Source of the DNA: Strigamia acuminata
Taxonomy: Eukaryota
Reading direction: 5' to 3'
DNA length: 64,000 nucleotides
NCBI GenBank assembly: GCA_949358305.1
Contig: OX442314.1
Location: 26,846,001-26,910,000, forward strand
Positions 10,984 through 47,196 of this stretch are shown one piece after another (within the stretch, counting starts at the first letter, position 1; each line of letters starts with the position of its first letter). The notes under the pieces were generated by a model. That model was given only the letters and a program-made list of their open reading frames with translations, did not search any database and was not told the DNA's origin. Position numbers and translations under genes: made by a program.

Positions 10984-13900
10984 TTAAGAAAAATAATTTT
11001 TAACAGTTGTGTAGCAGTTTTGAAACAACTCTGGTATGATGAGCAATGATAGACCAAACAATAAACCAAAGGCATTTGCCAAATCACAGAAAAGAGCTTC
11101 AAAGCTGTATTTAAGAATTTCAACGTATTGCTCGATTAAATTTGTAGCTGGCATTATTAAAACAATAGATACAGCTGATGCATTAGGATGCTGAAAATAA
11201 AGGTTTGTTTGGTGAATAACTTTCTTGCAAGTAGGCCGGCAGTCACATTCTCCTTTTGTGCGGACATTCAGAGACAAATAAATGAATTTTGCCAAGACTT
11301 CTTTAGCTTCTGATGCAGACTTGCATGTGTTTGTGAATGTGTTATTGGTAAATGGTAACCTAGTCGATAATTCAAATTAAAATAATATAATTCAATATGT
11401 CATGCGACTGCTAATATACCGGCACGAGATTAATTCGAATAACTTGTCTTGAAAGCATTTGTCTTGGCATTGTATATATTCTTCTTCCCTTTCAATACAC
11501 GGGCGTGATTTCAAATTCAGTGAAATTTTCTGTAAGTGTAGAGAATTGGTTAAATTACTCTTAAGTGTTCTTTTCATGTTATGCGATTTTACATTACAAC
11601 AAGTAGTTAAACACTAATTTAATTTATAGCTACTGTATTCAGGTTTTTTTTGGGAGGTGGAGGATAATATGAGTAAAAAAATTGGCGGGGGAATGTATCG
11701 TCCTGGGTAAGGTTTAACCTCGGCATCCAATCCAAACAGGAAACACAAGAGATTCTGGTTTTTCTAAATAATACAATCTTAATATCAAGATATTTAGATT
11801 GTTGCCTAATCATGAGTTGTAGTGTTGGAATTAATCTATAAAAAATGGAAATTATTTGTCATATAAGTATAATATATTTTACTTCGAAAGATGATATTTG
11901 CATTATTGACATGGTAGAGAAATCGATGTTCCGTCGACTTTTAAGAATAGATTGGATTTTAGCTCCAGGTGGACGAAGGTACAACTGCAAATTTAAATTT
12001 TTAAAAAATAAAAAAAAACTTGAAGCAACCCGATAATACGAGACTTTCATTATTTATACAGCATGTACCGTAGTAATGTTCTATACAATATTATAGTATA
12101 GATTTGAGAGAACCACATTATGCTGTGGCGTAGCAAGAAGTCAATGGGCCCGTAATAAAGTTGGGTTTGATGGGCCTTTTATCACAGATGTAGCTTACAC
12201 ACCAGAAATATTTTTCGGTACTTACTGTACAGGGTCACTTTAAAACGTTCATAGGCCCTAGGCATTTGTGTGAAGTTTTGACCTTTTCTTTTGCGAATCT
12301 TTTGCATTAATCTAGAAAGTAACATTAATGCTCCCCCCCCCCCCATTTGAATTCCTGCAACGGTAGCATAAAATCTTGAGTTGTGACTTGTTCAAATCGG
12401 GTTGTTTCGACTTAACCAAGTTTGGCAAAAGAGCTTAATCATTTACCATGTTTACATGTACTCACTTATCCAGATAAGTGAAAATGCGAATATTACTTTT
12501 GTGGAAAACTGCATGCGTTTACAAAGAATCAGTTTTCTAACAAAGGTGACGTCATAAGACGTTTTTAACTCTTTGTTAACCTTGCGCATTAATCTTCCAC
12601 AATGCACTGTGCAGAAACAACATGTCACAGCATTGTTGTGACGTTAGCTTTTCTAGATAAGTAATGAGTGGGTGTTTACATTGCAAATGGCAATGCGCAA
12701 AACACCCAAAATCTACCTCAAACAAGTGGATTTTAGTTATCCAGATAAGTTTGACTTTTCTGGAAAACTGATTTGTTTACATGATCAGTTTTCCAGAAAA
12801 GTAAATTTTGCATTTTTACTTATCTAGATAAGTGAGTACATGTAAACATGGTAATTGACGGTGTGTTGTCGACCGTTCATATCGACGACGATTTGACCCG
12901 AGCTGATATTTTTGTTGCGATAAAGAATCGTTCTGTTATCTTACCTGGCCCAATCCATCAGAACAGTCATTATCATTAATCTTTTTTTTATTTATAAGAG
13001 CAATAAAGAATGCAGAGGTAGCTCCAGCGTACTTTAGAGGCTCTAAAACAAAATAAAATGTATCTTCAATTCTTTATTTTATATTATTTTTATAACTTTC
13101 TCTGTACCGATAGTATAGTCCAAGCATGTTCCCGAATGCAGTTGTAAGTCATTGATACTGTACGTGTCATCTGTTGAACTTAACCCGAGTATCTGGAATA
13201 TTGTGAATTCCAGCATTAATTATAATCTACTGAACCTGAAATAGATAGCATAAACAAAATAGCAAAAAAAAAAATCGTATTCTGCCTCCAACTGCAGTGG
13301 TTTTGGAACTTGGATGCATACTACAGTAGTAATGTGACTGAAACTGACAAAATTGAAATATTTTTACTCAGTTATTTGTTCACTTTAAACACTTTTATGT
13401 TTTAATGTGATTTAAATTCCTTCAGGTTCAGTTATTCAGTTTATGGTTCCAATAAGCAATAGCAATTGGCACACGGAAACACAAATACTCAGCAAGCTAT
13501 ACTCAAAACCACCACAACGTTGACCTATTTCAGCCGGTTTACGCCTAACTGTGTACTGTGTTCTACTACGTGGAAAAGTAGTTTTGTGCCTTTGACAATG
13601 TTGGTAATCGATTACAATGTCTGGAGTTCTTTACAAATATGGTGTTATGAGCCACTTTTTTGTGCCACTACACCAGTGATACGGCTCGAACAATAGGTCA
13701 ACGTTGTGGTGGGTTTGAGTATAAGAATAAACATGAATAACACTTACCTCTGGAACATATTTCATTAAGAGTTTATTCAATTGAGGCTTTTGATATTTCC
13801 ATAATGTTTCGAGCGATGGTTTCTTATCACTGTTCATTAGATCAATGAAATGAATTTTGCATGGATCTTTCATAATCTTCTTTGCATATCGTTCTTTGTA

Positions 13901-16900
13901 TACGGTCATTAGTTTGCCATCGTTGCAGGCAATTATATTAGGCATGTAAATTGTATCGTTTTCTTTAACTTCAACTACGACTTTGATTGGTTCGCTGTAG
14001 TATAGCTGTATTTTCGTTGCAGTTAAATATACGGCAAGTATGGTATTTGTCAATAACACAATTAAACGCACGAAACGACCAATCGGTGGCATTTTATGTG
14101 AAGTATTGTGGCTTATTTTAGACATTACTTTCTCATGTATCTTCGCTATTTTACTTTTCAGATTTCTGTTTGATTGACGAAGAAGCTGAGAACTGTAGCT
14201 TCTAATTTTCTCGTGCAGTCGCTTAATCAGTGCTTGTCCTATTTCTACAAAGGATAACAATGATAATCCCAATGAAAATCCCAAATTTCCGCCAAAGTCT
14301 ACTAGCAATGCGATTATGTCGTAGTCAGGCGTTTCAGTCATGACTATGAATGTTGTATCAGGTTGTTTCATTTCGATGACAACTGTAGCATTATTGGGTG
14401 TTATCGCTAAGGCTACTTCCGTTATGTATATTTGCTTCGTGCATGGTCTCAAGCAACCACAATCCAATGTCGCTTTTGTTGATAATACAGTTTTGAATGT
14501 GTTGCCATGAATTTTAGCAACAATGGTTTCATTTTTTACCTCGCTGCAATCCTTAATTTTATTGTTAAAATCCATATACGGTAATCTGAAATTTAAAAAC
14601 GCTTTATTTATATCAGCAGTAAGAAGAAAATGTGGGCTTTTTAGATTTTAAAGGTAGATTTCAAGTCTGATAAACCTGACTAATAGTCAATATTTTGACT
14701 AACCGGCATTCAGGTTTCTCTTTCCGAGCCAAACAGTCTTCGTAACACTTTATACTATCTTTTACGTTTGAGTTGCATCCAGGGTGATGTGATGGTAGGA
14801 AATTGTACTGGAAATTAAAATTTTAGTTACTTTTTATTCTTGTGCAATCGAAGTCCAAAAATTTTGTATAGAACACAAAGGCAATGTCTACTGCCAGGGT
14901 AAAATGACTTGTTCTAAATCATTCTACTGTTCTCAATTTAGCAACAAATTTTTAGTGACTGAGAAACTTTGTGACGATTCTACCTTTACAAGATAATTAT
15001 ATCTTTGAGATAACTAAAACCTACCGAAATAAGCTATAAACTACATGTGTGCGTGCCAAGTGAAAATACAATGCGAATAACTTACAAGAATATCGATAAA
15101 TAGTATTGTTTATTAACAAAAAGTCCCGGTTCTAAATACACGTGAAATAACGGGTGGCAACGTCTGGCTGGATGTCGTGGGCGGGCCGAGGGATAGAGCT
15201 GGCTTTGCGGCATCGTCACAAAGAATGTTTTTGTGGGTGCGAAGGGTTCTTCGCACCGCTAAGCTACAACCTAAAGTTTATAGATTACTAAAATCGATGT
15301 AACGAGAATTTACCAATTCTCATGTGCTACGGAAAACATAATAAAGAAGGAATTACTAATTAGATATAATTCGAATGTCGGCGGGGACCATCACAATGGC
15401 GCTCAACCATTGCGGAAGGAAACTTCCATCCGCCATAAAATGCCTTACGACCGAAAGATTGCGTAATCCATGACTGGGTATTTGTTTAGTACGATGTTAT
15501 CGCTTCGGTGGTACCAACCACCAGGTAAATAATTGTACGGAATTACCAGAAGCCGATACAGTTTGTCGGGACGCCAGCGAGGAACAAGCGTTTGTTCCCA
15601 ACAAGACCGAGTATTTGTTTAAGTGCGACGAATCGCTTCGGCGGTACCATCCGCCGGGCAAAACATTGTGGGGTTTACCAATTTCCAAGTAGTTGTTTAA
15701 CGCAAGTATTACAATACTGCTCACGGGCTACCAACCCGGCGCTTCGCAGGCTGTCGTTTCAAGATCCATTTACCGTACTATTTCATACGGACGGATCTTC
15801 ATCAAAATGCAACAAATTATTGAAGCAAGACAACGAATCACCCTGGAGAGTCCCCAATCGTGCTGCAAACGCAAGTCACGAAACGTTGGGGGGATTTCCC
15901 GATTTTCGATAAAAGATACAAGACCAGATACAAAAACCGAAAGAACCGGAGGTCCGGTGGTCAACCGGAGCTCATATAGCTCTTCAGAACAGAAGGATTA
16001 GCGGTAGCCAATCGGCTACCAGAATCCACGGATTTCCAAGTCAATGTTGGGATTAGCGAGTCCGGACCTTGCGGAAGACTAGGTCCGAAGGAGTCCAATT
16101 GGCTCCTTACTTCCGGCAAGTATAACTTAGTAATTATTATTGGAATATTGATTCTATGGAATCAATATTCTTCATAATATTTGCTGAGTTTATTCTATTA
16201 AATAAACAGCAAAACATACTCTAATTTAAAGTATTTCTAACTCATATTTTGAATTACGCGCTAGTTTTATATTAGCGCCATCTAGTGTGAACTTTCGTGT
16301 TTATACGGTCACAACTTTCTTGCAAGAAGAACGGGTTATAGTCATTTTTACAAAAAAAAAACCCATGTTAGCGATTACGTTTTAGCGACAATATATGGTA
16401 ACTTTCCCATAGCAATCGCTAAGTTTTAGCGACGCGACACGATTTATCGCGACAACAATGTACTGCTCAAAAAATGGTTTTGCATAAAAAAACCAGTAAG
16501 GTTAGGTTCGGGGGGGTCAAGCGGGGGCGCAGCCCCCCTCCCTTGTTAGCCCTTCTTAGGAATTAAACCTAAAATATATGTAGTCGCGGTTTCCAAAGTT
16601 GCGGTAGATTCCGCGAGCATGTGCCCTTAAATACAGTGTAAGAACGGATAAAATAAGAAAAAAGTAAATAAACAACTAGATTTTTCCCTGTCAATAGACA
16701 TTTGCAAACCCATATGAGATCAAATTATTGAAACCCCCAAATTAATTGAAAAATTACCAAAATCTATTTAATTGCACACTAATTATTTACACACTATTTT
16801 TATTTATCGGACCCCCCATTCGTAGTTAACAATCCCCCGAAAATATTTATTTCTACACTGTCTTGTAAACGTCTTGTAAACGTTTCCGGAGAAAAAAATG

Positions 16901-19900
16901 GAATTTGGGGGTTCGGTTCAATAATTAGGGAACAAACTCAATATGTGCGCAATTAAATATTTCAGGTGTTTTGGAAAATATAAATAGGGGGTCAATAAAT
17001 ACAACCCAACTTATATGTAGATACCTGTCGCGTATGATAATTCACTAACAACATATTGCCCACAGCTGCTGGTGCTGCGTATTCAAAAGTCATTAGAGGA
17101 TTTATGGCCGTTAGCTATCGGAGACAAATTCTATTTAGCAATAAATAATAGGCGCATACACAAATGCAAACTGAAGTTGCAGTTAAACACGTTTTGCTCT
17201 TTAAATGTCGTGCGCATGCACATTGCGGCTGAAAACTGTTGGGGACATTCAGGCCTGTGGTGAGTCTGGAAAAGCAGGAATCCATTTTTCAAAGTTTGGC
17301 TAACATGCCAAACTGTTGGCAGCCATCTTAAATGCATGAGGTTAAAAACAGCAATGACCCATGTTAGAGAGTATACACTCTCTGCATTGAAACATAAAGA
17401 ACAAATCATAAATACAATGGATAACAAATGAGGAGACTTGTCCTATTAAAAGTCAATAACCAAATACAGATGAAATTAAACATAACAAATGATAAGCTGC
17501 CAATATAAATAATAATAACATAAATTATACAGCAAACTATATAAATATACAAGAGTTGTATATATTTGGCAGTTGTTAAACAACCGAACATTTCACAAAT
17601 CTCCAACATTCCCCCTCTGTTCGATTATTCAACAACTTCCTAAATGCAAAAGTAAATGCTAGTCTGATCAAACATCATTAAATCTTAAATAATGTTCAAA
17701 AAATAAGATCCATTGACTTATCTCTAATGAATTCTGAATTTTTGGACTTAATCCACCGCATGTTATAAACGGGATATGCCGGTTGTATTGGATCTTTATT
17801 ACAAAAGTCAAATAGGCTCGAATCAAATTCATAACCCTCTGCAGTACACCACTCCTTCACGTCATTTATATTCTGTATTCGATCATTGCTCGGTGAAGTA
17901 TAGATAACACTAATCTGCTCTGTGTAATTATCTATTTGATGCATTGTGGATTGCCTCCACCACCAACTCATGTCTAATTTTTGTTTAAGCCTAACGCCTA
18001 AGGAGTCTGAACAATTCCCAGAACAAACTTCAACCATGCCATTTCCAGCCGTGAGACTCAAATGTTGTTCCATCTCAGTGACCGTCTTGTCTAATATCGG
18101 CTCACTAACTGTTAATCGACAATCATCGTCCTTTGTTGCTGATAAAACAACATCCTTGCATTTCTTATGTCTCTTTTTCTTTTTCTTTGTCTTGCTACAT
18201 TCCCCCTCTGTGCTTACAGTCCCACAATGGTTTAAATCAACCAAACTAGGTGTTACACCTGGGGGAATTTCTAATGACAAATTAATTTTCTCTTTACTGA
18301 AACTCTGTTCTCGTTCCAATTCTTTCAGTTTCTTTTTAATTTCCCCCTCTATCTCAATCATTCTCCCCTCGCTTAATGATGGGGAAATTTCATCCTCTAC
18401 TGTGTTCACTAAGGAGGAAGACTTCTGCTCACAAGTGAGGCTCTCACAAAACTCTTCATCACTTCCTAAATGTTCCCCCTCGTTTCTAACACTTTCACAT
18501 TTATTAATGTCGACTTCTTCACTTAACGACAATGAGGGATTTTCTAAATTCAACAAGCCTAATGTTGAGGGAACTACCTCATGAGGGGATATTGGCACCT
18601 CAACCCTTGATGGAATTTCAGCTTCCAAACTCTCAGTGCAACTCTCAATGTTGGAAATTTCCAGAGAGGGTTTTAATTCCCCCTCGTGCCAATAACTCCA
18701 CTCATGTATCTGTACCGTATTCGTTTGAACAATTCTGTCCCTTGCTTGGTCCCAGACCCGGTATTTCCTATTAGATGTCGAATACCCAACTAAGGCGCCC
18801 ACCCAGGAACACCTTTTCCCATCGTTAATGTGGAAAACTCTAACTCTCGACCCCGTGCATCTGAGATGCCGTACCGATACACCTCGGTCATACAATACGT
18901 TGTATGACTAAATTAGCCGTTATTTTTGACGTTAGATTGGGATAATCGGTTTAAACGGCAGTTTAAATATGTTGTTTAAGACTCAGTTTAGTGTACATGA
19001 CCATAAACATGTGCAGTAATCTAATCATGTCCATGTTAGGGTTCAACCGTAATACCCAGCTTTGGAGAGCATACTCTAGCGAGTTTGACCTCGTCTGGGG
19101 ATATGATTGGCTGGTTCATTTGATGCCGTGCCAGAAAAGTTGAATTCCTGCTTGTTTTATCCAGCATTGCCAAAAAATTTGTATTATCCAGCATTTGCAT
19201 ACATTTTACTCAACGTAGGATGAACTAGTCTTTTGGAAATGAATAGTGTGCATCCATACTACGGTATTTTCATACTATTAAAGAAACAGTTCTTTTTTAT
19301 GCAAATATTGTGTAAATTATTGCGTTTATTTTTAATTTGATAATTGATTGGTCGGAAATGTACAAAAGCAACATTTCAATGCGAAGAGTTTATTTTTCCG
19401 TAATTTGCCTGGAACACTTTAAAGGAAAGGAAAGTAAACACCGTGTATTCTCACCATCACAGCTGGTTTTTTGCAGGTTCCATTTTTCTGAAACTGCCAC
19501 ATCATAGAGAATCCCTCAGCCATGGACAAATCTAAAAATTTAAATGATATAACTTGAAACTTATTTACTGTATCCAGTTCAGAAAAAAAATCCTTTCCTC
19601 ACTAAATGTTGTTGTAGTTGTTGGGAATATTTTTAATTTGATGCTAGATTGGCAGGAAATAGCACATTCTATTGTTAATGATAATTAGACCCCGGATAAA
19701 TGCATAAATGCATACTTCATATGTATATTGCATATATAGTCGAAATTGGCTTAAATTGCATATTTTCCGAAAATCGGAAAATAAATGCATATATTGCCAT
19801 TTTTCCGGGAAAAAACGGCGATTTATGTCTCTCTTTAACGATACGTAACATGTACGTATTAATTTTTGTCTTTTTTTTAAGACACGTATCGTGTACGTAT

Positions 19901-22900
19901 GCTTACGTTCAGAAAACTGAGGATTTCGCCAAAAACAGACACCAGGGGAAGTCACTAAATTAGTGTCTGAAAAAAGTTTTAAGATATAAACAAATACACA
20001 AATAAAAAAATAAAAAAAATGAATTGTAATTACTGATTATAGTTCATTTACATCAAGAACACTTTGAAATGGCATTAAGTTGTTGTTGAACACCTGATTT
20101 CACTCAAATAAATTTTTTTATTTTGCATATTTCACTTTTTTTTTTTGCATATATTGAAATTTTTGGTGCATTTTATATGCGCATATAACGAAATTTATTT
20201 TGCATACATATCCGGGGTCTAATGATAATGAAGCATCGTTACAACATTTGTTATCAAAGTGTAATTTCTGAATTAACAATGCTAGACTAACAGTGTCAAT
20301 CGACGATATTGTCTAGCTTTGTTGGTTAAGAATTTACAAGTGGGAAGACAACGTTGCAACAATGCTACATAAACAAAAAACGTCTCCTTGTATTTGTCAT
20401 GTCCAATTTCCTACCAATTTTAGAGTTCTACCTTGGGCATAATGGCTATGTGTGACCATGACGAGGAAAGGACTTTTTTCTGCTTTGCAGAGCAGCTTTT
20501 ATTACCTGTTTTGAAGATTAAAGCAACCCCCATCATTGTATTTTTTTCACTGATCTCTATATTGGAATTAGTTGTTAAAATTTGGCCATTATTTTTAGTC
20601 ATTTTAAAAATAGATTTCTTGTACTAAAAAAGAAATTTCTGACTTAAATAAAATAAAGCAATAAAGCAAATCAGAAAGGAAATGAAGTGCTGAACTGTAC
20701 TTTTACACATTGGCTTAAAGCACATTTACAAACTGCAGACGCTCTAGGAATCCTTGTCCTGATTTCTTGGCCAGGGATGACAAATGCATTAATAATTCAA
20801 ACAGTGGTGAAATTTTTATTTTATTGTCTGTGTGGGTGTTTGTTTGATTTGCTTGTTTAACACCTCTGCTTTAGTTCATTGATTTATAATTTAATTTTAC
20901 TTAATTTTGTGTTGCGCCTAGAAATAGCATTGTTTGATAGCATTGTCATTGTTTCCAATATTTAAAGTGGGGGTGCTTATTCATTGAGATCAAAGCTGTT
21001 GGTTTGTGTTGTAATGCTTCTTAATCATAGATGGCGCCAAATACCAGTTTTTATGTTAATTCATTACTCTCGTTTTGCACTCATTCCATGTAGAGACATC
21101 CTGCATTAAACCTGTGAATGTTTTCACTTGTAAGACCGTATTCATTTCATTGTACACGTCAATGCTTAGGACAGTTTCCCACAAACAAAGGTGTGACTGT
21201 TCGGACGGCCGCCACGTGGTCGGGGGAGAGCCACGGGACGCTGGACGCAACACACACTATGATTATCCACCGAAATACGACCAAAGACACAGGTTTAGTT
21301 ATGATTGATAGCCTTATTGTTGTCTAAGGGTGTGATTGGTGTCTCAGGTGTATTTCCCAATGCGATGGTTGCGGATAGCCATCCCTAACCAGACCGCGTG
21401 GCACGGCGGCCATTGGCCGTAACGTTCATGGGAACGTAATACGTACGGTGAACACAGCGGACTTGGACGCTCAGGTCCCGGTGGGCGACAGAGTCGCCAC
21501 GCCGACGTTTGGGTCGTCATTACAGTTAGTTTCGGGGAACAATCACAAAAGCGACCGTTTGCCTTGCTACCGTCGTCCACCGAATATAACACCATGGAGT
21601 TGTATTCGAATATAACATCACCCTGGTGTTGTATTCGAATACAACACCATGGTGTTATATTTGGTGGAAGATGGTAGCTGGAAGAAAACTCCCTGGGCCT
21701 CTGTGGGGCTCACCTACAGAAGGGCAGAGTCTCGATTGGTGGAACCAACGGCCCTCAGCTCCACCTGGTGCGAGGGACCGCAACAGGGCGTGCACTAGAA
21801 ACACAGGAGGTGCGCGAGAGCTGTGAGAGTGCCGTGTGTTGCAGGCAAGTGATCAGCCTGCGTGGGCAGCTGGTCACAAAGGGTTATGGGTCCAGTGCGC
21901 AAAATTCTGTGAGAAAGGAAACTGTAAGTGACTTGAAAACATGTCAATAATAAGTGACGATCAGGAAAAGTGTGGTTCGAAAATCGAAATTAATGGCGGA
22001 TCCAAACGAGCATGGTTTTACCCAGACCGAGAAGCTCGATACAAACTATCCGTCATAGAGATGGAAAGTGATGATTTTACTTGAAAAACATGGCATTCTG
22101 AATACGATAGACGAACAAGCAAATTGAGATCACAACCGAGACCAAAATCGTTATCACGATCAAGAACGAAACAAAAATGACGAGGCCAAACATGACAGGA
22201 AAAACCTTAAGGCCAACGCAATCGCGGTCGGAAACGCAAATAAAAGTGACCAGAAAAATGATGGGCAGCGCAGAGACACCAAGTGGGATGAAAATCTTAG
22301 CTATGGCTCTGCTAAAGGGCCCATCATCCAACTTGCACACAGGCCCATTGGTGTATTGCTACGCCGCTCACCACGGGTACGGTATCTATGCTGTAACAAC
22401 AGTGTGCACATATCCATGACATGTAATTACATCTCTATACTCGAGTTGCACTCAAAAAGGCACCTCACAATGTGTACTCCCATTGGTCGAGCCAGTTTAC
22501 TGGTGTAGTGATCCGGAAAAATAGACCCAAACACCAGAATTGCATAACAATGTACAGACATTGCAATCGATTGCCTAGGCAACGGCCTAAAATTCAAACT
22601 TCCAGACGATGTAAGTAACATTTTTTATTAAATAAAATCAAAATAACATAAACTAAATTAGTCATAACAATCACAACAATAAATAAAAAACAAAACTACT
22701 TCTCCTAGTAGTAGTATACAGTCTGGAGTTAGTAGTAAACTGGCTCGACCAATGGGAGTACACATTGTGAGGTGCCTTTTTGAGTGCAACTCGAGTATAA
22801 GTACTCAATTCATTTTAAGCGACGATTTGACGGAACCAAGTGATCGCATAAAATGATGTACATCTTTATTTGCGTTTTGAAATAACAGATTTTCTTACTA

Positions 22901-36500: not shown

Positions 36501-39500
36501 AGTTACAACCCTGCCTGGAACACTTTAACCTTTTCATAGCCATGGAGAGTTAACAAATAACAAATAACAAAAGTAGTAAAACAACTAACTTTTTTTCCTA
36601 AAAATTAATTCAGGGGACCAACATTAATTCTTCCAAAATTTTTTTTATAATTTTATAATGACTAAGTTCGAATATTTTTTTGGATCATTAATAAAAAAAT
36701 ACAATAGTGAGTTTTGCCAATTGTTACAAGCTCATAATTATAAAAATGGACTTATAACATAACGTAACTCTTCAACTTTTACACTATTTTGTAAAATAAG
36801 GGAGCCAATCAGATCGCTTAAAATTATTTGTAGTTCCTCCCACTATTGCAAATGGCGCTGATGGTGCTGATGGAAATTACAAATGGCGACATGAACAGTT
36901 TCAACTTTCAGTCTCAATCACAATTTCTTTCTGCCATCGAAGGATAGAAATAACTAAAATTATTCCAGGTAAGCAAATAAATAAACTGGAAGACAATTTC
37001 ATGTCTGAAAACTGTCAAATTAGTAAAACTACAGATTTTCATTTTCTTTTGCATAGGGATTTGTTCTACCATTACATGGTATTTATAAGTATAATTTATA
37101 AAATATATCGCAAGTGCCTATTTCAAGAAGGAATTATAATTATAATTATGAGCTTGTAACTCATAATTATAAGGAACAATTGGCAACCGCAAACTCACTA
37201 ATTAACTACAACATAAAACACTATTGCGGGAGCGCTTTACAACTGTTTTGCCACATTTTAACATTAGGCGGTACATTGTATATTGATATGCTTCTGTGCA
37301 TTTGCACAATTGCATTTTTTCAGGAAATATGTGATTGTGCATATGCGCAGAAGCATTTCAAAAGGAGACAGAAATGATCGACCATGGCAATCAATGTGTG
37401 GTAACCAGTCATGGGGCTATGGGAAGGTTAAAGTAAACACAATGTATTCTGACGAGTAATGCTGGTTTATCACAGATTCCATTTCTCTGGAACTGCAAAG
37501 TCAAAGAGAATCCTTTGGTGATGGACAAATCTAAAAATGTCAATAATATAATTTGAAACTTATTTACCAATTGCCATATACAGAGTGGGTAAAAAGTCCT
37601 TCATTCACCAAACTTTGTAAAGGTATTGGAGATTGTTAAAGGAGTATTTTTGTAACATATTTGTTAAGTTCTAACTTCTTTCAACAACAATGTTAGACTA
37701 AAAATGTCAATTGTAAAGTTATAGAACATTATTTTTTTTAACATTTTTTTAACACCCAAAATCATGTGGTCACCCTCAGAGACATTCTGTGGGCGACCCC
37801 CTTCTGAGCCATAAGAGGGGTTACTTTCCCCTTCTTGATCCACTTCTTGAAAAAACAAGTGCATGCCCTGAGGGAGTGAAAAGAGTGACAGGCAGCCATA
37901 CCAATGGTGGCCACTGTCACCTCACCCCACTGTTTAAAGCTATGGATTTCCCGCCTTTAAGGGAGAAATGGCTTGTCACAGTGGTGAATGGTGAGAGAGG
38001 CAGTGTCGACAACAGGCAGGGTTGCCTTTGCCGGCGTTGGGACAGTGACCGGCACACACTTCTCTCCCATATTGCACACGTCCTTCCTCTCTGCTCTCCC
38101 AGCAATGTCTCTCTCTCACCACACCACTCAGCTCCCTCCTCCCCAGCTAGGCCAGTCCACTCCAAAAAGGGGACAGCTTGGGGCCACTAGGTGGTATGTG
38201 GAGTGACGCAGGTCACTAAGGGTGGCCAAACGGTCACAAACTATTTGATGTATATTACATGGGTAATCACTAAAGATCACAAGTAAGACAAATCACAGAG
38301 TTCGACTTTGAGGGGCTACATCTTGTATATTTCCTGTATCTGTCTTAACTCTTTTAGGCCAACTTAATTTCTTTCAAAATATACGTAAAAAAGGATATTC
38401 CTTTACCAGTAGTAATTTTGGGATTAATACAATGTGTTTATTTGCAGCTAAGAAATAAATACTTTCCACTTTTTGTAGTGAAAAATTATTTTGTAGCAAA
38501 AAAAATGAGATTATTGTTTTTTTTATTTTTACTGAAAAATTTCTCCTGTTGACACATTTTTGCCATTGTCCTAAACCAATGACACTCTACAATTTTGCAA
38601 TTGACATTTTTGTGTTGAGTTCTTGGTTAAGAAGTTAAAACTGGGATAACAATGTTGCAACAAGATTTGCCATTAAAATATCTACAACACTTTTCAATTC
38701 ATTTGCCAAAGAAAGGATTTTTTTTATCTGTTGTATAAATTGAGCAGTTTTTATTACCTGTTTTGAAGATTAAAGCAGCTCCCATTACTGTATTCTTTTC
38801 ACTTATTTCTGTATGTGAATTAGTTGATAAAACTTTGCTATTGTTTCTAGTCATTTGAAAAATAGGTTTCTTGTACTATAAAAACAGTGTTAAATAAAAT
38901 TAAAGAATATGGAGCAACAGAAAATGAAGATGTGCTGAACTATAATTTTACGCATTGATTTAAAGGTGGGAATGTCACTACAATAATAGATCGGACACTT
39001 GAGATCCTTTACTTACGACGCCAGTCACAAACAAACTTAGCATTATCGCGCAGGTAAATTCGTGTGAAACTTGTTTTGCGCAAGCATTTGTGTTCTAATA
39101 ATGAATGAGTATTTGTGCCCACATGCGTGTATCCTTGAGGTATTGTATCCAATTCATCCGATTTCGAATTACTCGATAATTACACAGAACTAATTAATAG
39201 CATAACAGAAGGAATACTGTTGGTTTTGAGTGCTCAGTCTTCACGCCAGGTGAACGTTTCACCTGCGCACCCACGACGTCCAGATGACGTACTTGGCCTA
39301 AACCAATCAGGGTTGAGCGCACCTGTATATAATGTGTTAGCAATTAGAATAAAGTCAGTCATTCATGTTAAACCTAACCACGCGTCTTATCATTGTCCCA
39401 ACCTTCGACACCAAAAAACTACAGGTTATGGGCCCAGCACGCTTCCACTGCGGATAAGAATCATCAAGTTTTGTACACGAAACGATCGAGGAAGTCAAAA

Positions 39501-42500
39501 CGTTTTTGACACGAACCGTTTCGAGAAGCAAAATTGAATATTTTGCTAAGTTATGACGCAAAATATGAATTATATAAAGAGGCAATAAATGTTGTTAACT
39601 ATAGGCTTGTCCAATATTATTAAATAAAAACTAGTACTTTAAAGAAAAAATACCAGGGGGAGGGCTTGACCCTTACCCCCGGTCTAGCCCGAGACCTGAT
39701 TCCTAGTCCAATTTTAAGGAACTGAGAAATAAAAACCACAGGAATTCAGAAATAAAACTTTATTTACTGAAAAAGCATCGAAAAGGCATGACGGATCGAC
39801 TTATTGGCGATCTAAAAATTCAATAAAATAAAATAAATAAATGTTGTAAGGGTGGCAAAAAACTTTCAACAAGGAAGCATAGAAAACAAACAGAAGGGTG
39901 GGAAATAACAACATTTATTGCCTCTTTATATAATTCATATTTTGCGTCATAACTTAGCAAAATATTCAATTATATTACAGCTAAGGCAATAAATGTTGTT
40001 AACTATAGGCTCTTTGTAGCCTCCACTAACCACTAAGATAAAATCACTCAAAATCTTTTCGACTGGGTGATTATAAAACATAAAAGACCGAAGCAGAGGA
40101 CCAATCCGCCGCTCGGAAGATATAAGAATTATTGTGCCCGGGACTGGACATAATTCCTTGTCCTCAAAATAAGGTAGAACGAAAGGAGTGGATAAAGATG
40201 ATTTTCTCCTCCCTAGAAGGGGAAAAAACACACAAATTGGTAGAGAAAACTACCTTGGTCGACACGAGTTTAAGGTTATGGAAGCTTTCCCTGCCAAGGG
40301 GAGGGCTAAAAGACGTAGGCATTCTTAATTCTAATTCAATCTCTCGAAACATCACGTTACCATTATGAAGAACAAAATTCTCAGTTTGATATTTGATATT
40401 TTACGAGGAGTAAACGCCCATTTACTGCTACTCTGGTAGAGCGACTATTTTGGTATTTAAGATTCATATGTCACGTCGTTAAGTTCAACTAGAAACAAAG
40501 GTTTAGAAGAACTAGATTTTCAGGGGTGTGTATTAACCAGGCCAGGACCGTGACAATGCTCTTCGCAATTATCGTGTCTAAAAATTAAATCTGTGGTCCG
40601 TGTAATTCTTCCCAAGTTAAGACGTTAAAGTTTAGGCTAATGTTTCATTAATGATATTACACATTCCGATGAATCATCTAGGTATGCCAAATCGAGGGTC
40701 ATCAGGTTGTTACAAACTTGGATTATTTTAATTACAAACCTGTGTGTAGGATGATAATAAAAACCAAACCGAAAAGATAAGACATTGTGTCAAGACGAAT
40801 AAAATCATGTGGATGCAAAAGGACCTACATCTTCCCATATTACATAAGTATAAAATAGGCGGGACCTTTATTTGTTAACAAAGTTTTGGTATATATTATT
40901 AACAAATGTGTTAGATGGTGAACCTCGTAATAAAAATGTGCTTCCAAGCACGATTCTTCCAAACTCAACTCTGATTTCTTATGAGGTATGGCGTGGGAAA
41001 AATTAGGTGGAAAGTAAAGATGACAAATCGCTTAAATAGAAGGCATAAATATACGGTTGACTTCAGTGACAATTGAAAAAACGTTTATTCAGATTAGGAG
41101 GTAGCTGGCACTGCAGAGTACGGAATGCTGAGATTATAAAGATGGCAATAGTTTAAAAGAGGGTCAAATCTTCTCCCTCCTTTCTTTCGTCGTCTTCCGA
41201 GAGGGCATTATGTATATTTTATAAATAAATTTTATATAATAGAAAAAAGACGGCGTCTCGAATCTGGGAAAGAGAAACATCTCGAGAGTGGGACCCGAAC
41301 CTCGGGTTCATGTGGTAGGTTGTTCCGCCCACTTTATTACACTGAGCTGATATGAACATAATTTCCAATTACATCTCGAGGTGCGTTGTCGATATTTTGA
41401 CAACTAACAAGTAACAAATATACAAACAGATTTTCATCCTAAAAATTAAAATGTAGCAATATTAATCGTGAGGCTCTCTAAGATTTTGCCGTCATGTTAG
41501 TAAAAAATATATATCAACCACCACTTAGTGGTGGGAAAGAAAAACTCTGAATTACCTAGATAAATAACCGGTGTTCCAGAAGAAGGATAAAGTGAGGAAC
41601 AAGTGAAAATTCGGCATGAATTTAACAAATTAAGTAAGGAAAATTAACATGCGAGAAAGGTCATGTTGGATGTGACTCCTCACTTGGCAGAAAAAACTAC
41701 ATCATGAAGCAACCTGACACACAGAAAAAAGATAAAGTTTATTTTGTAAATAGCCATGCAGTTCTTGTTAAATCTCACATTAATCAAAAGTTTCAATTGA
41801 TATTGTAAAAGAGCTTTGTTTTCCTCCACACCAGAGCCTAATCTGATATTTGAGGATGTGGGAAAACTCTAAACGTGCAAAATTCATTTGTTAAAAAGCA
41901 AACATGAATGGTCGAATTTTTCAAAGGACTATTTGCATTCGCATTAGAAAACATTAAAAGATTTGCAATTTAAGTTCATCTTCTAAGAGAAAAGAAAATT
42001 CACCTCCAATTTCTTTCGTCTCACCTTTAAAATAATGTTAACACTAATCAGTAGTAGTGTAAAATAATTTTATTGAACTGTGTAAAGTAAAATAAAATAA
42101 AATAAAATAAAATAAAATAAAAGTCAAATTTGATACGAAAACAGTTTCTCGATTGTTGTACGGCGCTACGCAAATAATATGATTGTCTCGGGCAAGAATG
42201 AAAGCAAAACACTGGTACAGCAAGGTAATGGCAAGTTGCGACAAAAGTTGAGCATGTCGACTATTATATTTGCAAGACAAACAAACATTTGAGGTGATGA
42301 GATCACTATTCTCGTTATCAACTTAGTAGCACAAAAAAACTAGTTGAAGCTCATGGGTACTGACAATATTTGGCCTCCGCTTGTTGGTAAAATAAATAAC
42401 TCAACTTCTGCCTTGAAGCGGGAACATTTCCTTGTTGTGCAGCAACATTCGCAGCCACAACTCATGTGCGCTGTTGAGAGAAAAATCCGAAAACCGGGCA

Positions 42501-45500
42501 AAAAGGTCCCGTTTTGTAGCGGACAAAGCCTCTGCTTTCTAGCGGACAAATTTTCCGCTTTATAACGGGCAAAACCTCCGCTGTGTACGAAAGCTACGTT
42601 CCTGTTCTCTCTCTCCTCTGTTCATGGGCGAAAATTGTCTCCCCTTATCGGTTGACCGGTTAAAAGTCCGGCGAGTTCGACTATCATGCCGGAAACCCTT
42701 CGCGGGATTTATGTTCCTGGGTCGGTCTACTAACGCGAACTGAACTGCTTATTTCTCTAAATTTACAAAAAACAATAAGTTGTTAGTGAAAAAATTTTTT
42801 GAAGCAATAAAAAATTACTGAAAACGTTCAAAAAATTGCCCTTGAAAAGGGATATCTCTATCTGAGTTGCGGATATGCTACACCATATCAGCTTTATGGC
42901 GCTCAAACTTTGTACGACGTTAAAAAGTCTTTCAGTGCTAATCGCGTTCATCATATTCGTACTATTGAAAATTGCTTTGTTGGCATACAACAGCTCTTCC
43001 CTGCTCATAGGGGCGTGTGTTGTTGTGCTGAACGTTTGAAAATCTGGCCAAAATTGAGCCCACGCGAGCAACTATGCCATTCAATCTACGTAAAAAACGT
43101 TCACGCAGAAAATAGATGGCTTGTTACGCACTCCTACGTAGGCTTTCACGTCCTCATCCATCTTATTTCCCCTTTTCAGAAGGGAACTTGACGATTTGGG
43201 CAAGGAAAATGTGCCTTAAAACTGTTAGTTAGGGCAGCTGAAGCCAGTTAACTCAAATTTTTTGACACATTTCCTTCGCGGATGACTCGTGCAGAAGGAC
43301 GCATCATCATTGTGACCGCTGGAATCGACTGAAGAACGGACGGAGTCATCATCAAATGGGATGGTGAATTTGAGACTGAACGAGTTGACTGTTATTCTTG
43401 AACGAAATTCGTTCGATCATCTGAAGTGCCGGAGCCCGACGATTCAAATTTGAACAGTGAAACATCTGACTACAACCAGTCAGCAACCACGTGTGATCAA
43501 TCAAAATCAAATCATGTAGCAAAAAACAAAACTTACGTGATTCTCAGACTGAGCCAAACCCCACTCGTCTCTACGAGATCGAGACATTTTTGGTTGGTCG
43601 GTAGACTCCTCCCGCTGAAGAGGAGCCCCACCTGTCTGGTTATTGAGAAAAGGCCATGAAAATAAGCTTTTCAATTGCTTGGGAAGAAAGTTCCATTTCG
43701 GAGTTAGGCATTTGACTATTCGCAACGTGCGAGACGATTAAGTCGGCCCCAATCAGATTCCGTATACCGTTAAATTCCTCTTTGATTCGTTCAATTTGCT
43801 TCTTTGAAGACAAATGTGGGATGTTGACGATGGATCCAACTAGCAGGGTTCTTATCTGGGCCGAGGTCGAGGACGCGATAGGCTCGTGATGAATCTCGTC
43901 ACGTGTTGAAATCGTTAGTCCTAACGGCGCGCAGGCGGCTACGTGCATTTTCTAACCCTTTTGGCACTTGAAACGAGAAAAACGGACTTCCTACCTCTAG
44001 ATTATACAGGATTCGTATTGAAAAAGGGCAAAAATTATTCAAAATAACTAAAAATTCTAGGGCGCGATGGATTCGTGATGAATGTCAGCACGTGTCTTAG
44101 TGAAGTTAGGCTTAGCGGTGGTCGGGTGACCACGCGTTCTCCGTGCTTTTTCGGAGTTTGAAACATCTTCAGATGACTTCTTACCTCTAACTTTAGTAGG
44201 GCCCATCGTAAATTGGGGGTAGAAGATGTAAAAAAGCAAAAACTATAAAATAACCAAAATTTTTCTTGGACGCGAAAAAACGCGTGCAGAAAGCTTGGCT
44301 AGTAAAATTAGACTAGGGATCAGGTCTCGGGCTAGACCGGGGGTAAGGGTCAAGCCCTCCCCCTGGTATTTTTTCTTTAAAGTACTAGTTTTTATTTAAT
44401 AATATTGGACAAGCCTATAGTTAACAACATTTATTGCCTTAGCTGTAATATAATTAGAAACGATGGCGAATGCAGGCGGAATTTCGGCTAGAATCGAAGC
44501 ACTGGGGAAAGAGAACTACGATGCGTGGAAAGTCCAAATGGAAGCAATTTTGGGGAAGAACGATCTCCTGAAGTACGCGGACGGAACATTGAAGCGACCA
44601 GAAGTTGTGCCAGAAAACAACAACACCAAGAAAGCCGCCGAAATTTGGGACGCGAAGGACAGAAACACGAGATACGATATCTTGCTACACGTAAAGCAGT
44701 CAGAGATTCGATTGTTGAAAAACTGTAAGACCTCAAACGAATTATGGAGAAAATTGGACGAAATTTACGAAGCGAAAGGACCGGCAAATATGGGCATGTT
44801 GCTGAAACAAATTTGCGGAAACAAAATGGCTGAAAACGAAAACGTGCGTGACTATCTGAAGGGATTTTTTGAAGCAGTCGATAAGCTACTCGACATGGAT
44901 ATGGAAATCCATCCGACACTTACTGGGATGCTGCTGTTGCAAAGTTTGCCGAAATCATTCGATACGTTCAAGATCACGATGGAATCGCAAGACACATTGC
45001 CGACGCTGGAAGCGCTAAAAGCTAAAATTATAGCCGCAGCAATTTCTCAAGAGAAAGATAAAGAAGAAGTATCCGACGCAATGATGGCCAAGAAATCGTT
45101 CCAAAAACGGAGGCAACCAAAGAACGGCGACGATGAATCGGATTCCGATGAAAAGCTGACTTTTAAATTTAAATGTCACGGTTGCGGAAAAATCGGACAT
45201 AAAATCGCGGATTGTTGGAGCAAGAATAAGAGGGAAACTGCGTCGAGGGCCGAAAAATTCAGACACGACGCGTATCATTGTGAATGGATGGAAACGGCGA
45301 TGAAATGTGAAGCGCCAAAATCGAAAAGATGGTGTTTGGGCAGCAGTACCAGTTCACACAAACGTTCGGACGAATCGACATTCAAAAACGTTGAAGCATT
45401 GAAGAACCGAAAATTGAATTTGGCCAGTAATGCGAGCACGAAAATCAACGGAAAAGGAACTGTGAAGATCGAAATTGGTCCCGAAAATGACAATTTACAT

Positions 45501-47196
45501 TCGAAACTGGAAGAAACGTTGCTGGTACGTGACTTACAAACAAATTTAATGTCTGTCAGAAATATTACCGACCAAGGTGATAAAGTTATTTTCAAGAAAA
45601 AGGCCGCAGAAATTATAAAACCAAATAGAAAAGTTGTTTTTACGGCGGAGAACACGAGTACGGAAGTCGAGAAGACGAGAACCGGGAACGTGAAGACCGA
45701 AAAGGCAAGCATGGAAGTCGAGAAAGCAAAAACCGAGAATAAGAAAGCATGTACGGGAGTCAAGAAGACGAGAACCGAGAACAAGAAAGTGTGCACGGAA
45801 GTCGACAAGACAAGACCCAAGAACGTAGAAATTCGCGAATGGCACGAGAAGCTCGAGTACGAATCAATTTTGAAGAAACTGAAAAACGACATTGCAGAAC
45901 AGATAAGTCGAACATTAATGGAAATGGCGCGATGTATGTTTTTGCAGTCAAGCAAGGAATCGAGTGTAGAACTTTCCGAAAATGAGAACGAAGTTGAAAT
46001 TTCCGAAAACAGGGACAAAGTTGAACTTTCCGAAAACGAGGACGAAGTTGAAATTTCCGAGAACGAGAACGAAGTTGAAATTTCCGAAAGCGAGAACGAA
46101 TTCGAGGTTTCTGAGAACGAGAATGAAGTCGAAGTCGAGATCAATGACGAAGTCGAGAACGAGACGGAACAAGGGGAAGTCGAAACTCCCCAGATCAAAA
46201 ACGTACGGCCGCCTCCGCGACAATCTTCGAGAACTTGGAAACTGCATTCAAATCGAAATGGAAAACCACCAGGAAGAATTCGATATGAAGAGTATTAATT
46301 AGTAAAACAAAATATTTGAATTGTTTGAGAAAAATATGTTAAATATTTGAATTGTTTAAGAAAAGCGTTTTTAATTGTTTTGACTTTTGAAATGTAAAAA
46401 TGTTGGAATATGTGGTGACTGGCACTCAGGGGAAGTGTTGGTTTTGAGTGCTCAGTCTTCACGCCAGGTGAACGTTTCACCTGCGCACCCACGACGTCCA
46501 GATGACGTACTTGGCGTAAACCAATCAGGGTTGAGCGCACCTGTATATAATGTGTTAGCAATTAGAATAAAGTCAGTCATTGCTGTTAAACCTAACCACG
46601 CGTCTTATCATTGTCCCAACCTTCGACACCAAAAAACTACAAATACCTTTTGGTTTTCAAAATGACAAACAGATTGTGTACCAACGAATAAATACAAATC
46701 TAAAAAAAAAAAAAAAAAAAAAAAAACACACACTTACCTGGTATGCTTCTATAAGTTCCAAATTGTTTAGCAAACTTGAATCGAGCCACAACTGAGTATA
46801 ATTTGAAACTTCGATATTTTGATTTATAATCCCTGTCACTGCATTCCCACAATATCTAGGATTGTTGAAAGCGCCTTTTGCTGACAGCCAGTAAGGAGCC
46901 AAAGCTGCTGTATCTAATCCTGTCAACATGTAGCCAGGTATTTTTAGTTCTTTCGTTTCTTTATATTCAATCTCAACTTTAATTGGTTTAGACAAGTAGT
47001 ATTGCACTCTTCGGTATGTCTCATAACAACAAATGGTGAGACAAAACGTTACAGCAACCAACCACAGAATGCGAACTGCAACGGATTTCTGCTTGTCCAG
47101 TAACTTATTCAATATCGGCAGAGATGTCTTCTCGATTGAACTTGCAATTTCTTGTTTGCAAAAATGCCGAAGGCGATGTTTATTCAACTTCATCAT
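30521..47196 (-). CDS. DEG/ENaC-like gene C, two tandem channel modules, about 816 aa. Exons: 47196-46738, 38875-38758, 37530-37454, 36104-36015, 35729-35626, 35540-34703, 33235-33151, 33080-32989, 31483-31382, 31106-30997, 30896-30521
   Basis: GT-AG junctions keep frame; exons 2-11 match gene B in length except exon 8 (92 vs 98 nt); same TM1, TM2 and Cys motifs. Confidence 0.85.
31564..32140. mobile_element. TTAA/AGG-type MITE with the right end truncated
   Basis: GAGTGGGATTTTTACATTTTCTGAAAGCC versus GGCTTTCAGAAAATGTAAAAATCTCACTC; long imperfect inverted arms. Confidence 0.7.
32500..32570 (+). repeat. tRNA-derived SINE-like head (A box TGGTCCAGTGG, B box GGTTCAAATCC)
   Basis: Pol III box motifs at tRNA-like spacing; no clean cloverleaf. 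Confidence 0.35.
33399..34121. mobile_element. Tc1/mariner-type MITE with ~260-bp TIRs and TA TSD
   Basis: TA-CAGGGTGGAAGAAAAGTCTG ... CAGACTTTTCTTCCACCCTG-TA; mirror-image pseudo-ORFs 33367(+) and 34117(-). Confidence 0.9.
34377..34447. repeat. 18-bp tandem repeat (TCCACACCCCAGTGGACA), about 4 copies
   Basis: Direct repetition. Confidence 0.9.
36529..37427. mobile_element. piggyBac-like TTAA MITE with a nested second MITE (about 36705-37200)
   Basis: TTAA-CCTTTTCATAGCC ... GGCTATGGGAAGG-TTAA; empty site in gene B near 19406-19440; inner TIR TAGTGAGTTT..GCCAATTGTT. Confidence 0.7.
39424..39452 (+). promoter_or_regulatory. Copia primer-binding site complementary to the 5' half of initiator tRNA-Met
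   Basis: GGTTATGGGCCCAGCACGCTTCCACTGCG immediately after the 5' LTR. Confidence 0.85.
39532..44455 (-). mobile_element. Decayed DIRS1-type element (DIRS-b), sister family of DIRS-a, nested in the Copia 5' UTR
   Basis: ITRs at about 39580-39715 and 44303-44439; ICR 39906-40010 joins both ends at AATT; YR remnant (RRKSSLSTPFVLPYFEDKELCPV...FYNHPV) at about 40010-40370; gag remnant (HFPCPNRQVPF, KMDEDVKAYV) at about 43100-43240; ITR motifs GGCTTGTCCAATA and CCAGGGGG shared with DIRS-a. Confidence 0.88.
44463..46298 (+). CDS. gag: Copia Gag with CCHC knuckle, inactive protease and integrase remnants; no RT/RNase H
   Basis: IEALGKENYDAWK, CHGCGKIGHKIADC, WCLGSSTSSH (catalytic D lost), NDIAEQISRTLMEMARCM (integrase tail), acidic ISENENEVE repeats. 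Confidence 0.85.
   Translation: MANAGGISARIEALGKENYDAWKVQMEAILGKNDLLKYADGTLKRPEVVPENNNTKKAAEIWDAKDRNTRYDILLHVKQSEIRLLKNCKTSNELWRKLDEIYEAKGPANMGMLLKQICGNKMAENENVRDYLKGFFEAVDKLLDMDMEIHPTLTGMLLLQSLPKSFDTFKITMESQDTLPTLEALKAKIIAAAISQEKDKEEVSDAMMAKKSFQKRRQPKNGDDESDSDEKLTFKFKCHGCGKIGHKIADCWSKNKRETASRAEKFRHDAYHCEWMETAMKCEAPKSKRWCLGSSTSSHKRSDESTFKNVEALKNRKLNLASNASTKINGKGTVKIEIGPENDNLHSKLEETLLVRDLQTNLMSVRNITDQGDKVIFKKKAAEIIKPNRKVVFTAENTSTEVEKTRTGNVKTEKASMEVEKAKTENKKACTGVKKTRTENKKVCTEVDKTRPKNVEIREWHEKLEYESILKKLKNDIAEQISRTLMEMARCMFLQSSKESSVELSENENEVEISENRDKVELSENEDEVEISENENEVEISESENEFEVSENENEVEVEINDEVENETEQGEVETPQIKNVRPPPRQSSRTWKLHSNRNGKPPGRIRYEEY

What the first reader, a model, noticed from the sequence alone, without database searches (positions are those of the whole stretch)
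10984..47196. Naturally concatenated two-module DEG/ENaC channel genes
Seen: the single 838-nt exon 6 (14585-13748 in B, 35540-34703 in C) runs without stop or intron from a thumb domain and TM2 (YDIIALLVDFGGNLGFSLGLSLLS) through a basic ~50-aa linker into a second TM1 (RLIVLLTNTILAVYLT...YYSEPIKVVVEV). A second ECD and TM2 (DLANAFGLLFGLS) follow in exons 7-11. Both paralogs are intact. Established: DEG/ENaC/ASIC subunits normally have one TM1-ECD-TM2 module and assemble as trimers. Inference: a tethered two-module subunit would fix stoichiometry (dimer plus a separate monomer, three dimers forming two linked trimers, or one module left unused). This may be an undescribed lineage-specific family, possibly chemosensory given the tandem expansion.
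Basis: partly seen in the sequence, partly recalled or inferred. Interest (0 to 1): 0.88.

Follow-up and report, generated by a model that had tools for sequence, protein, structure and literature searches.

The report
Naturally fused two-module ENaC channels
Two neighbouring genes, likely from a centipede, each hold two complete ENaC/ASIC-type ion-channel subunits in one reading frame, a layout shared with a family of predicted centipede genes, and this would make a normally three-part channel assemble from pre-joined pairs.

Summary
Confirmed at DNA level. Genes B and C model as intact 11-exon genes (818 and 816 aa), each with two full DEG/ENaC modules. The junction (TM2, basic linker, TM1) lies inside one 838-nt exon, and intron phases repeat in both modules. 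It is not a local accident: 28 of 85 database hits carry such a junction, 23 of them Strigamia maritima gene models. First and second modules form separate groups in the tree, which points to one old fusion and a later expansion. Both modules have dN/dS near 0.5; module 2 has an altered gate residue. Closest solved relatives are the centipede antennal channels PDPNaC1 and BRTNaC1. Decapods hold separately derived three-module proteins. Ten literature searches found no description, and the scan's notes show no earlier record on other DNA. No transcript spans the junction, and all relatives are predictions. Best mechanism, inferred: a tethered unequal pair fills two of three channel positions and a separate subunit completes it. 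New variant of a known kind.

The parts
10984..23387 (-). Gene B, two-module DEG/ENaC, 11 exons, 818 aa (exons 23387-22929, 20623-20506, 19531-19455, 17114-17025, 14807-14704, 14585-13748, 13192-13108, 13042-12945, 11984-11883, 11529-11420, 11359-10984)
   Evidence: Predicted model, all GT-AG, no internal stop; two modules by HMM
30521..47196 (-). Gene C, two-module DEG/ENaC, 11 exons, 816 aa (exons 47196-46738, 38875-38758, 37530-37454, 36104-36015, 35729-35626, 35540-34703, 33235-33151, 33080-32989, 31483-31382, 31106-30997, 30896-30521)
   Evidence: Predicted model; 72% identical to B; two modules by HMM
13748..14585 (-). Gene B exon 6: thumb and TM2 of module 1, linker, TM1 and finger of module 2
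   Evidence: Open frame; Pfam ASC, 2 stretches; covered in 30 of 30 bins by contigs of two runs
14228..14329 (-). Gene B TM2 of module 1 (aa 369-402), canonical DFGGN...GLS pore motif with Val at the degenerin position
14084..14227 (-). Gene B basic linker (aa 403-450), predicted cytoplasmic; two in-frame ATG codons, no poly(A) hexamer
14000..14083 (-). Gene B TM1 of module 2 (aa 451-478)
   Evidence: Hydropathy, HMM
34703..35540 (-). Gene C exon 6 with the same junction (TM2 35284-35183, linker 35182-35039, TM1 35038-34955)
10984..11359 (-). Gene B exon 11: thumb end and TM2 of module 2 (DLANAFG...GLS), short C-terminus, stop
30521..30896 (-). Gene C exon 11: thumb end and TM2 of module 2, stop
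927..1385 (-). Exon 1 of a third paralog (gene A); the rest lies off the window, so its module number is unknown
   Evidence: 78% identical to B exon 1 over 153 aa, GT donor follows; Pfam ASC

Best explanation
Each gene's predicted 11 exons give one reading frame with two complete DEG/ENaC modules, likely made as a single four-helix chain whose two unequal modules likely fill two of the three positions of a cation channel, with a separately encoded one-module subunit likely supplying the third. Shown: the frame, the junction inside one exon, the repeated intron phases, a family of relatives with the same junction, separate tree groups for first and second modules, selection on both modules, and a different gate residue in module 2. 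Inferred: an ancestral centipede tandem pair of diverged DEG/ENaC genes fused when the last exon of one joined the first exon of the next; the short basic linker lies in the cytoplasm and holds the modules side by side; the pore is asymmetric; the variable outer domains tune the stimulus while the pore parts stay uniform, as in a sensory receptor family.
For: Exon start phases 0,1,0,0,2 occur in exons 2-6 and again in 7-11, with the last intron in the same C-R/L-P codon. 28 of 85 hits span a TM2-to-TM1 junction; 23 are Strigamia models, 19 of them of the window's type. Module 1 is one group (13 rows, 98/96) and module 2 another (14 rows, 91/96); a clade of the window's four modules is rejected (p-AU 0.022). 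Linkers are about 26-54 aa and net positive in 21 of 21 rows, without conserved sequence. dN/dS is 0.53 and 0.50 (Fisher p about 1e-4 each); all 8 thumb cysteines are kept in both modules. The lower-gate glycine (Gly375 in PDPNaC1, PMC12714832 passages) is kept in 23 of 23 first modules and replaced in 9 of 10 second modules. A predicted model of the Strigamia relative P0006 (pLDDT 69, pTM 0.65) matches BRTNaC1 with its second half (Z 19.1, rmsd 4.8, 329 aligned) and PDPNaC1 with its first (Z 18.3, rmsd 4.8, 316 aligned). Engineered head-to-tail ASIC1a dimers gave currents in oocytes (PMC4529235 passages). A solved ENaC beta-gamma dimer entry is listed in the PDB (9btu, title only).
Against: No transcript or protein spans the junction. 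The relatives are automatic gene models, and their exon structure could not be read. No test here separates 2+1 assembly from self-completion, and no one-module partner gene lies in the window. The linker shows no purifying selection on sequence (2 synonymous, 11 non-synonymous changes) and holds two conserved in-frame ATG codons. The gate change may be one inherited event. The module-2 group is not starred, the careful tree used no mixture model and carried long-branch warnings. Module 1 of B and C has lost both palm cysteines. The engineered dimers also gave cleavage products. A sensory role rests only on kinship at about 20% identity.
Confidence: 0.45

Rival explanations
1. The chain is made whole but completes itself: three chains give two trimers (one 2:1, one 1:2) tied together by the chain that spans both, or longer linked arrays; no separate subunit is needed.
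For: Six modules fill two trimers exactly. Both modules keep 0' Asp/Asn, 10' Gly and the thumb cysteines. Engineered ASIC1a dimers expressed alone were functional. The window holds only two-module genes where it can be judged.
Against: Linkers as short as about 26 aa must bridge two bulky trimers (geometry not modelled). Two kinds of pore would form, one with two altered gate residues.
Confidence: 0.27
2. The gene yields two separate subunits after all, by cutting of the linker or by an internal start (two in-frame ATG codons in the linker), so the fusion only co-ordinates expression of a heteromer.
For: Two ATG codons are shared by B and C. P0050 is a module-2-only model that starts in the linker. 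The linker sequence is unconstrained.
Against: No stop, no poly(A) hexamer and only a weak donor (score 4.3) lie in the linker, so module 1 has no end of its own. P0050 may be a truncated model. The frame stays open across very diverged relatives.
Confidence: 0.12
3. Two chains form a four-module ring (A-B-A-B), as two-domain subunits do in K2P and TPC channels (recalled), so the fusion went with a change of symmetry.
For: Two-module subunits fit even symmetry. One paper argues from cross-linking for tetrameric ASIC1a (PMC4529235 abstract and passages).
Against: The nearest solved relative PDPNaC1 is a homotrimer, and ENaC is a 1:1:1 trimer. Each module keeps the fold of trimeric channels.
Confidence: 0.06
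4. Only one module lines the pore (three chains per channel), and the other hangs outside as an accessory sensor or chaperone.
For: Module 2 has the altered gate, and module 1 of B and C lacks the palm disulfide.
Against: TM2 plus C-terminus of module 2 is the most conserved part between B and C (98% identity, dN/dS 0.13), and 10' Gly is kept in 10 of 10 second modules.
Confidence: 0.05
5. An assembly or annotation artefact, or a decaying read-through pseudogene.
For: All proteins are predictions. A 1-base deletion in B exon 8 (12973) shows in most of the contig depth of both runs, unexplained. dN/dS of 0.5 is fairly relaxed.
Against: Two full open frames of over 800 codons with 20 canonical introns; contigs overlap across the junction (one study, possibly the source sample); no stop among 30 of 30 listed exon-6 variants; the same junction in another genome with modules sorting by position.
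Confidence: 0.05

Closest known systems
[quoted passage not shown]
   Same: Best PDB sequence hits (E 6.4e-08 and 2.4e-06) and best fold matches; similar short modules of 420-430 aa; same ten-cysteine frame; PDPNaC1 also lacks the HG motif.
   Different: One module and two helices per chain; PDPNaC1 is a homotrimer. Identity to the window's modules is only 18-20%, so their stimuli (proton release, heat) cannot be carried over.
Uncharacterised Strigamia maritima proteins in UniProt (T1ITA9, T1JD34, T1ITL7, T1IPM9, T1J963 and others)
   Same: Same TM2-linker-TM1 junction; T1ITA9 is the nearest (40% over exon 6, E 1.6e-50) and is sister to B and C in both modules.
   Different: Unnamed automatic models, many partial; the searched main text of the genome paper does not mention ENaC, pickpocket or degenerin.
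Vertebrate ENaC (alpha-beta-gamma) and heteromeric ASICs
   Same: Unequal subunits around one pore; human alpha-ENaC has Ser556 where beta and gamma have Gly, and 5 of 10 second modules have Ser at 6' (that Ser556 is the 6' position is recalled).
   Different: Subunits are separate genes. B and C keep Gly at 6' in both modules.
Engineered ASIC concatemers
   Same: Head-to-tail subunits in one chain; dimers, trimers and tetramers gave currents; 19-residue added linkers were used for ASIC2a/3 trimers.
   Different: Laboratory constructs; they add linkers to the native tails, while here the whole gap between helices is about 26-54 aa.
Two- and four-domain channels of the voltage-gated family: K2P, TPC, Nav, Cav (recalled, no call)
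   Same: Internal duplication fixes the order of unequal modules and lets them specialise.
   Different: Those pores are four-fold, so two or four modules fit; two modules do not fill a three-fold pore.
Spider-mite ENaC expansion (PMC5203786) and insect pickpocket family (PMC8438182)
   Same: Lineage-specific multiplication of diverged DEG/ENaC genes in arthropods, discussed as chemoreceptors.
   Different: Term searches of both main texts found no 'fused', 'fusion' or 'tandem'.

Membership tests
DEG/ENaC/ASIC (Pfam ASC PF00858), judged per module | Match to the ASC profile | tested here: met
   Exons 1, 6 and 11 of B pass the cut-off; C exon 11 is just under it; own HMM finds two modules
DEG/ENaC/ASIC (Pfam ASC PF00858), judged per module | TM1, large cysteine-rich outer domain, TM2 | tested here: met
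   Gene models and hydropathy; TM2 of B module 1 by motif only
DEG/ENaC/ASIC (Pfam ASC PF00858), judged per module | Conserved thumb cysteines | tested here: met
   8 of 8 in all four window modules against PDPNaC1
DEG/ENaC/ASIC (Pfam ASC PF00858), judged per module | Palm cysteine pair (PDPNaC1 Cys90 and Cys171) | tested here: not met
   Present in module 2, both lost in module 1 of B and C, kept in 3 of 4 Strigamia first modules aligned
DEG/ENaC/ASIC (Pfam ASC PF00858), judged per module | TM2 pore motif with 0' Asp, 6' Gly and the G-x-S belt | tested here: met
   Both modules of B and C; module 2 has Ala-Asn for Gly-Gly at 2' and 3'
DEG/ENaC/ASIC (Pfam ASC PF00858), judged per module | His-Gly motif before TM1 | tested here: not met
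   Absent before both TM1 helices; HG in 1 of 21 linkers; functional PDPNaC1 lacks it too
DEG/ENaC/ASIC (Pfam ASC PF00858), judged per module | ASIC-like fold | tested here: met
   Tested on the Strigamia relative P0006, not on B or C: both halves match, Z 18-19
Canonical DEG/ENaC subunit, judged per chain | One module and two membrane helices per polypeptide | tested here: not met
   Two modules and four helices in the predicted chain; hence filed as a variant
Canonical DEG/ENaC subunit, judged per chain | Trimeric assembly | not testable with these tools
   A full pair plus a third subunit, or several chains, exceeds the 1000-residue limit of the complex tool; no job sent
Canonical DEG/ENaC subunit, judged per chain | Cation current, amiloride block | not testable with these tools
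   Needs electrophysiology

The most novel reading that the evidence does not exclude
DEG/ENaC channels have been naturally concatenated at least twice in arthropods: once as two-module chains that expanded into a large centipede receptor family, and once as three-module chains in shrimps and crabs that would be a whole pseudo-trimeric channel in one protein. This is the three-fold counterpart of the domain multiplication seen in Nav, Cav, TPC and K2P channels. The two-module form must solve a symmetry mismatch, either by taking a free third subunit or by building linked double trimers.
Probability: 0.65. Interest if true: 0.9.

Novelty: new variant of a known kind. Interest (0 to 1): 0.8.

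Why it matters
DEG/ENaC subunits are described as one module per chain, and their stoichiometry is studied with artificial concatemers. A natural two-module family would give a fixed, ordered pair whose modules have diverged for a long time, so one can ask directly which position shapes the gate and selectivity, and how a three-fold channel handles a two-part subunit. It also points to an overlooked candidate sensory receptor family in centipedes, next to the heat and proton sensors BRTNaC1 and PDPNaC1, and to one-chain trimers in decapods that would be handy scaffolds for subunit-specific studies. Annotation pipelines probably split or truncate these genes, as many Strigamia models are partial.

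Tried and rejected
No genome is held for the window. No RNA holder listed for exon 6 (2 runs, one study, none on record as RNA). Word-index search for longer relatives of exon 6 found none among 1739 candidates, and the search with alignment A1 returned only its own first row; the index missed relatives that the full HMMER search found, so these blanks carry no weight. The search with P0025 gave itself and one more protein. Metagenome scan: 94 pattern matches, none confirmed. Atlas searches gave generic ASC clusters only. The fold of the three-module crab protein failed (5-row alignment, pLDDT 36, pTM 0.25) and was not used. No complex prediction was sent, since the sizes needed exceed the limit and split halves would pass by likeness. 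Long hits P0049, P0067, P0075 and kin (926-977 aa, molluscs and a ribbon worm) are single modules with a large insert, not concatemers. P0028 is a spurious hit. A duplication private to this genome's lineage was rejected. A conserved-looking stretch at 13353-13200 was considered as an exon and dropped, since its frames differ between B and C and hit stops. Contig depth over exon 6 is several times that of neighbouring unique contigs (about 300 against 40-50 in X1), a hint of more copies, but depth is no copy number. Two joints inside or across exon 6 have unknown letters between and were not resolved. A paper on ENaC beta-gamma dimers could not be opened. Supplements were not read; those of PMC4244043 and the appendix of PMC12714832 may list these genes.
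Full report
Observation. The window has no held genome. Comparing the two paralogous regions gave 11 exons for each gene on the minus strand. Joined, they read as 818 aa (B, 23387-10984) and 816 aa (C, 47196-30521) with no internal stop, and 20 of 20 introns are GT-AG. Exon 6 is 838 nt at the coordinates given and runs from thumb and TM2 through a basic linker into a second TM1. Pfam ASC matches exon 6 in two stretches and exons 1 and 11 as well. An HMM from 28 single-module hits finds two near-complete modules in each model; the seed was drawn from hits to exon 6 and included P0050, later seen to be a module-2-only model. Exon 1 of a third paralog lies at 1385-927. The splicing is predicted, and no read confirms it.

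Origin of the layout. Exons 2-6 start in phases 0,1,0,0,2 and exons 7-11 repeat this, with the last intron of each module in the same Cys-Arg/Leu-Pro codon. The modules are about 21-24% identical (93 of 393 and 90 of 422 columns). This is what the fusion of two tandem genes would leave, with the last exon of one joined to the first exon of the next (inference). The linker holds no stop, no poly(A) hexamer and only one weak donor-like site, but two in-frame ATG codons.

Is the DNA right? Two public runs of one study, kept as contigs and not on record as RNA, hold exon 6; one may be the source sample. Their contigs cover 30 of 30 bins and overlap across the junction (X1 14076-14228 with no difference, X1 14100-14269, X2 14133-14286, both 13930-14085). 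None of the 12 indels shown, of 15, lies in exon 6. Of 40 variant rows shown (134 hidden), 30 fall in exon 6; none makes a stop, 20 match gene C and 10 match neither gene. Against this, a 1-base deletion in the A-run of B exon 8 appears in most of the depth at 12973; it may come from another paralog or allele and is unresolved.

Selection. Between B and C, dN/dS is 0.53 in module 1 and 0.50 in module 2 (Fisher p about 1e-4 each). Synonymous divergence is 0.38-0.39 in the outer domains but 0.055 from TM2 through the linker to TM1 (p 1e-6) and 0.077 in the last TM2 (p 0.013). Gene conversion of the membrane-coding segments is the likely cause (inference). So B and C are not independent evidence for the linker, whose own sequence shows no constraint (2 synonymous, 11 non-synonymous changes).

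A family. A full HMMER search with exon 6 gave 85 hits; 28 of them contain a TM2-to-TM1 junction. I looked up 30 of the 85: of the 28, 23 are Strigamia maritima models, 3 are decapod proteins, 1 is an unnamed 241-aa ENA protein on a 1154-base contig, and 1 was not looked up. The nearest hit is 40% identical, so the window is likely from a centipede, though this is inferred from homologues only. Nineteen Strigamia models are of the window's type; four (P0003, P0004, P0016, P0017) have near-identical tandem modules and may be merged neighbours. Linkers are about 26-54 aa and net positive in 21 of 21 aligned rows, with the caveat that only in-frame models can be found this way.

One old fusion. 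In a quick tree of 85 rows with a mixture model, first modules (16 rows plus the fragment P0037, SH-aLRT 92) and second modules (18 rows plus P0050, 90) formed separate groups, with several small subgroups recurring in both; the short first module of P0044 fell elsewhere. A careful tree of 44 rows, leaving out 41 short or distant rows, gave 98/96 for 13 first modules and 91/96 for 14 second modules (LG+G4, long-branch warnings; whether the two groups are sisters is open). A clade of the window's four modules is rejected (p-AU 0.022). The pair has thus been inherited together over long branches, which an annotation slip would not produce.

Anatomy. All eight thumb cysteines are kept in all four window modules; module 1 has lost both palm cysteines together. 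The HG motif is absent, as in PDPNaC1 (PMC12714832 passages). That paper places gates at Asp372 and Gly375 and selectivity at Gly378. The Gly375 position is Gly in 23 of 23 first modules and Asn, Ser or Ala in 9 of 10 second modules; the Gly378 position is Ser in 5 of 10 second modules but Gly in B and C. These counts share ancestry. Module 1 of B and C has Val at the degenerin position, where a bulky residue favours opening in other family members (recalled). The best PDB hits by sequence are PDPNaC1 and BRTNaC1. I could not fold the spliced window proteins; a model of the full Strigamia relative P0006 (pLDDT 69, pTM 0.65) matches these two channels with each half.

Mechanism. Shown: frame, family, tree, selection and pore asymmetry. 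Inferred: the chain is made whole (about 0.85) with the linker in the cytoplasm. As the solved relatives are trimers, two modules leave one position open. I put a separate one-module partner first (0.45): the linkers are short, module 2 looks like a subunit of an obligate heteromer, centipedes have one-module channels, and uniform pore parts with variable outer domains suit a family that plugs into a shared partner. Self-completion into linked trimers is close behind (0.27), and engineered ASIC1a dimers do conduct alone, though with cleavage products (PMC4529235 passages). Nothing here separates the two. A sensory role is plausible from the antennal relatives (PMC9974506 and PMC12714832 passages) and is untested.

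Three-module proteins. Two Halocaridina rubra proteins (1244 and 1289 aa) hold three modules, and two Petrolisthes proteins plus an unnamed 1015-aa Logan protein hold three TM pairs with a shrunken middle outer domain. Their modules group by position and apart from the centipede family (100/98 for 6 rows). They are predictions too, and the fold attempt failed, but they suggest a second, independent concatenation that gives a whole trimer.

Literature. Ten full-text searches listed no paper on natural two- or three-module DEG/ENaC proteins. Term searches in main texts found none in PMC8438182, PMC10148893, PMC10507113, PMC5203786 and PMC9822975; PMC7067487 notes decapod ENaCs without this feature in the passages seen; PMC4244043 and PMC9151784 do not mention ENaC. 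I saw passages only, no whole text and no supplement, and most subscription journals are not held. The scan's own notes had no record by sequence, place or words.

Verdict. A real, apparently undescribed architecture of a well-known channel family, shared by a large predicted centipede family and paralleled in decapods. New variant of a known kind, interest 0.8. The main gap is a transcript across the junction.

Noticed in passing
P0025, P0073 (Halocaridina rubra KAK7028032.1, KAK7013173.1); P0065, P0086 (Petrolisthes); P0090 (Logan): Predicted three-module, six-helix DEG/ENaC proteins in decapods; modules group by position; the middle outer domain is shrunken in the crab proteins and P0090. 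Possible one-chain trimers.
   Followed up: partly
P0003, P0004, P0016, P0017 (Strigamia T1IU28, T1IZL2, T1ITG7, T1IL99): A second Strigamia group with near-identical modules in tandem, up to parts of three per model; either merged neighbouring genes or a younger concatenation.
   Followed up: partly
window 14000-14329 and 34955-35284: The membrane-coding segments of B and C are far more alike at silent sites than the rest (dS 0.055 against 0.38), suggesting gene conversion that keeps pore parts uniform.
   Followed up: partly
window 12973: A 1-base deletion in the A-run of gene B exon 8 in contigs of both runs; a frameshifted allele or another paralog.
   Followed up: no
window 49626-62752: Ty3/Gypsy-type retrotransposon with 1044-base LTRs 99.7% alike, gag (50777-52732) and pol (52648-57477) frames, a 4-base flanking duplication, and an extra 956-aa frame (58004-60874) with no Pfam match.
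   Followed up: partly
window 6409-8838: Reverse transcriptase frame with a Dam-like methyltransferase domain, the layout of DIRS-type elements (recalled), between genes A and B.
   Followed up: partly
window 33394-34126: Element with 270-base inverted ends (96% alike) in intron 6 of gene C.
   Followed up: no
window 17699-18907: 403-aa frame with a retroviral-polymerase SH3-like domain in intron 3 of gene B, likely a retrotransposon remnant.
   Followed up: no
window 39218-39423 and 46436-46641: A 206-base repeat (98.5% alike) occurs twice in intron 1 of gene C.
   Followed up: no
P0049, P0067, P0075, P0087-P0089: Mollusc and ribbon-worm DEG/ENaC proteins of 926-977 aa with one module and a long insert before TM2.
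   Followed up: partly
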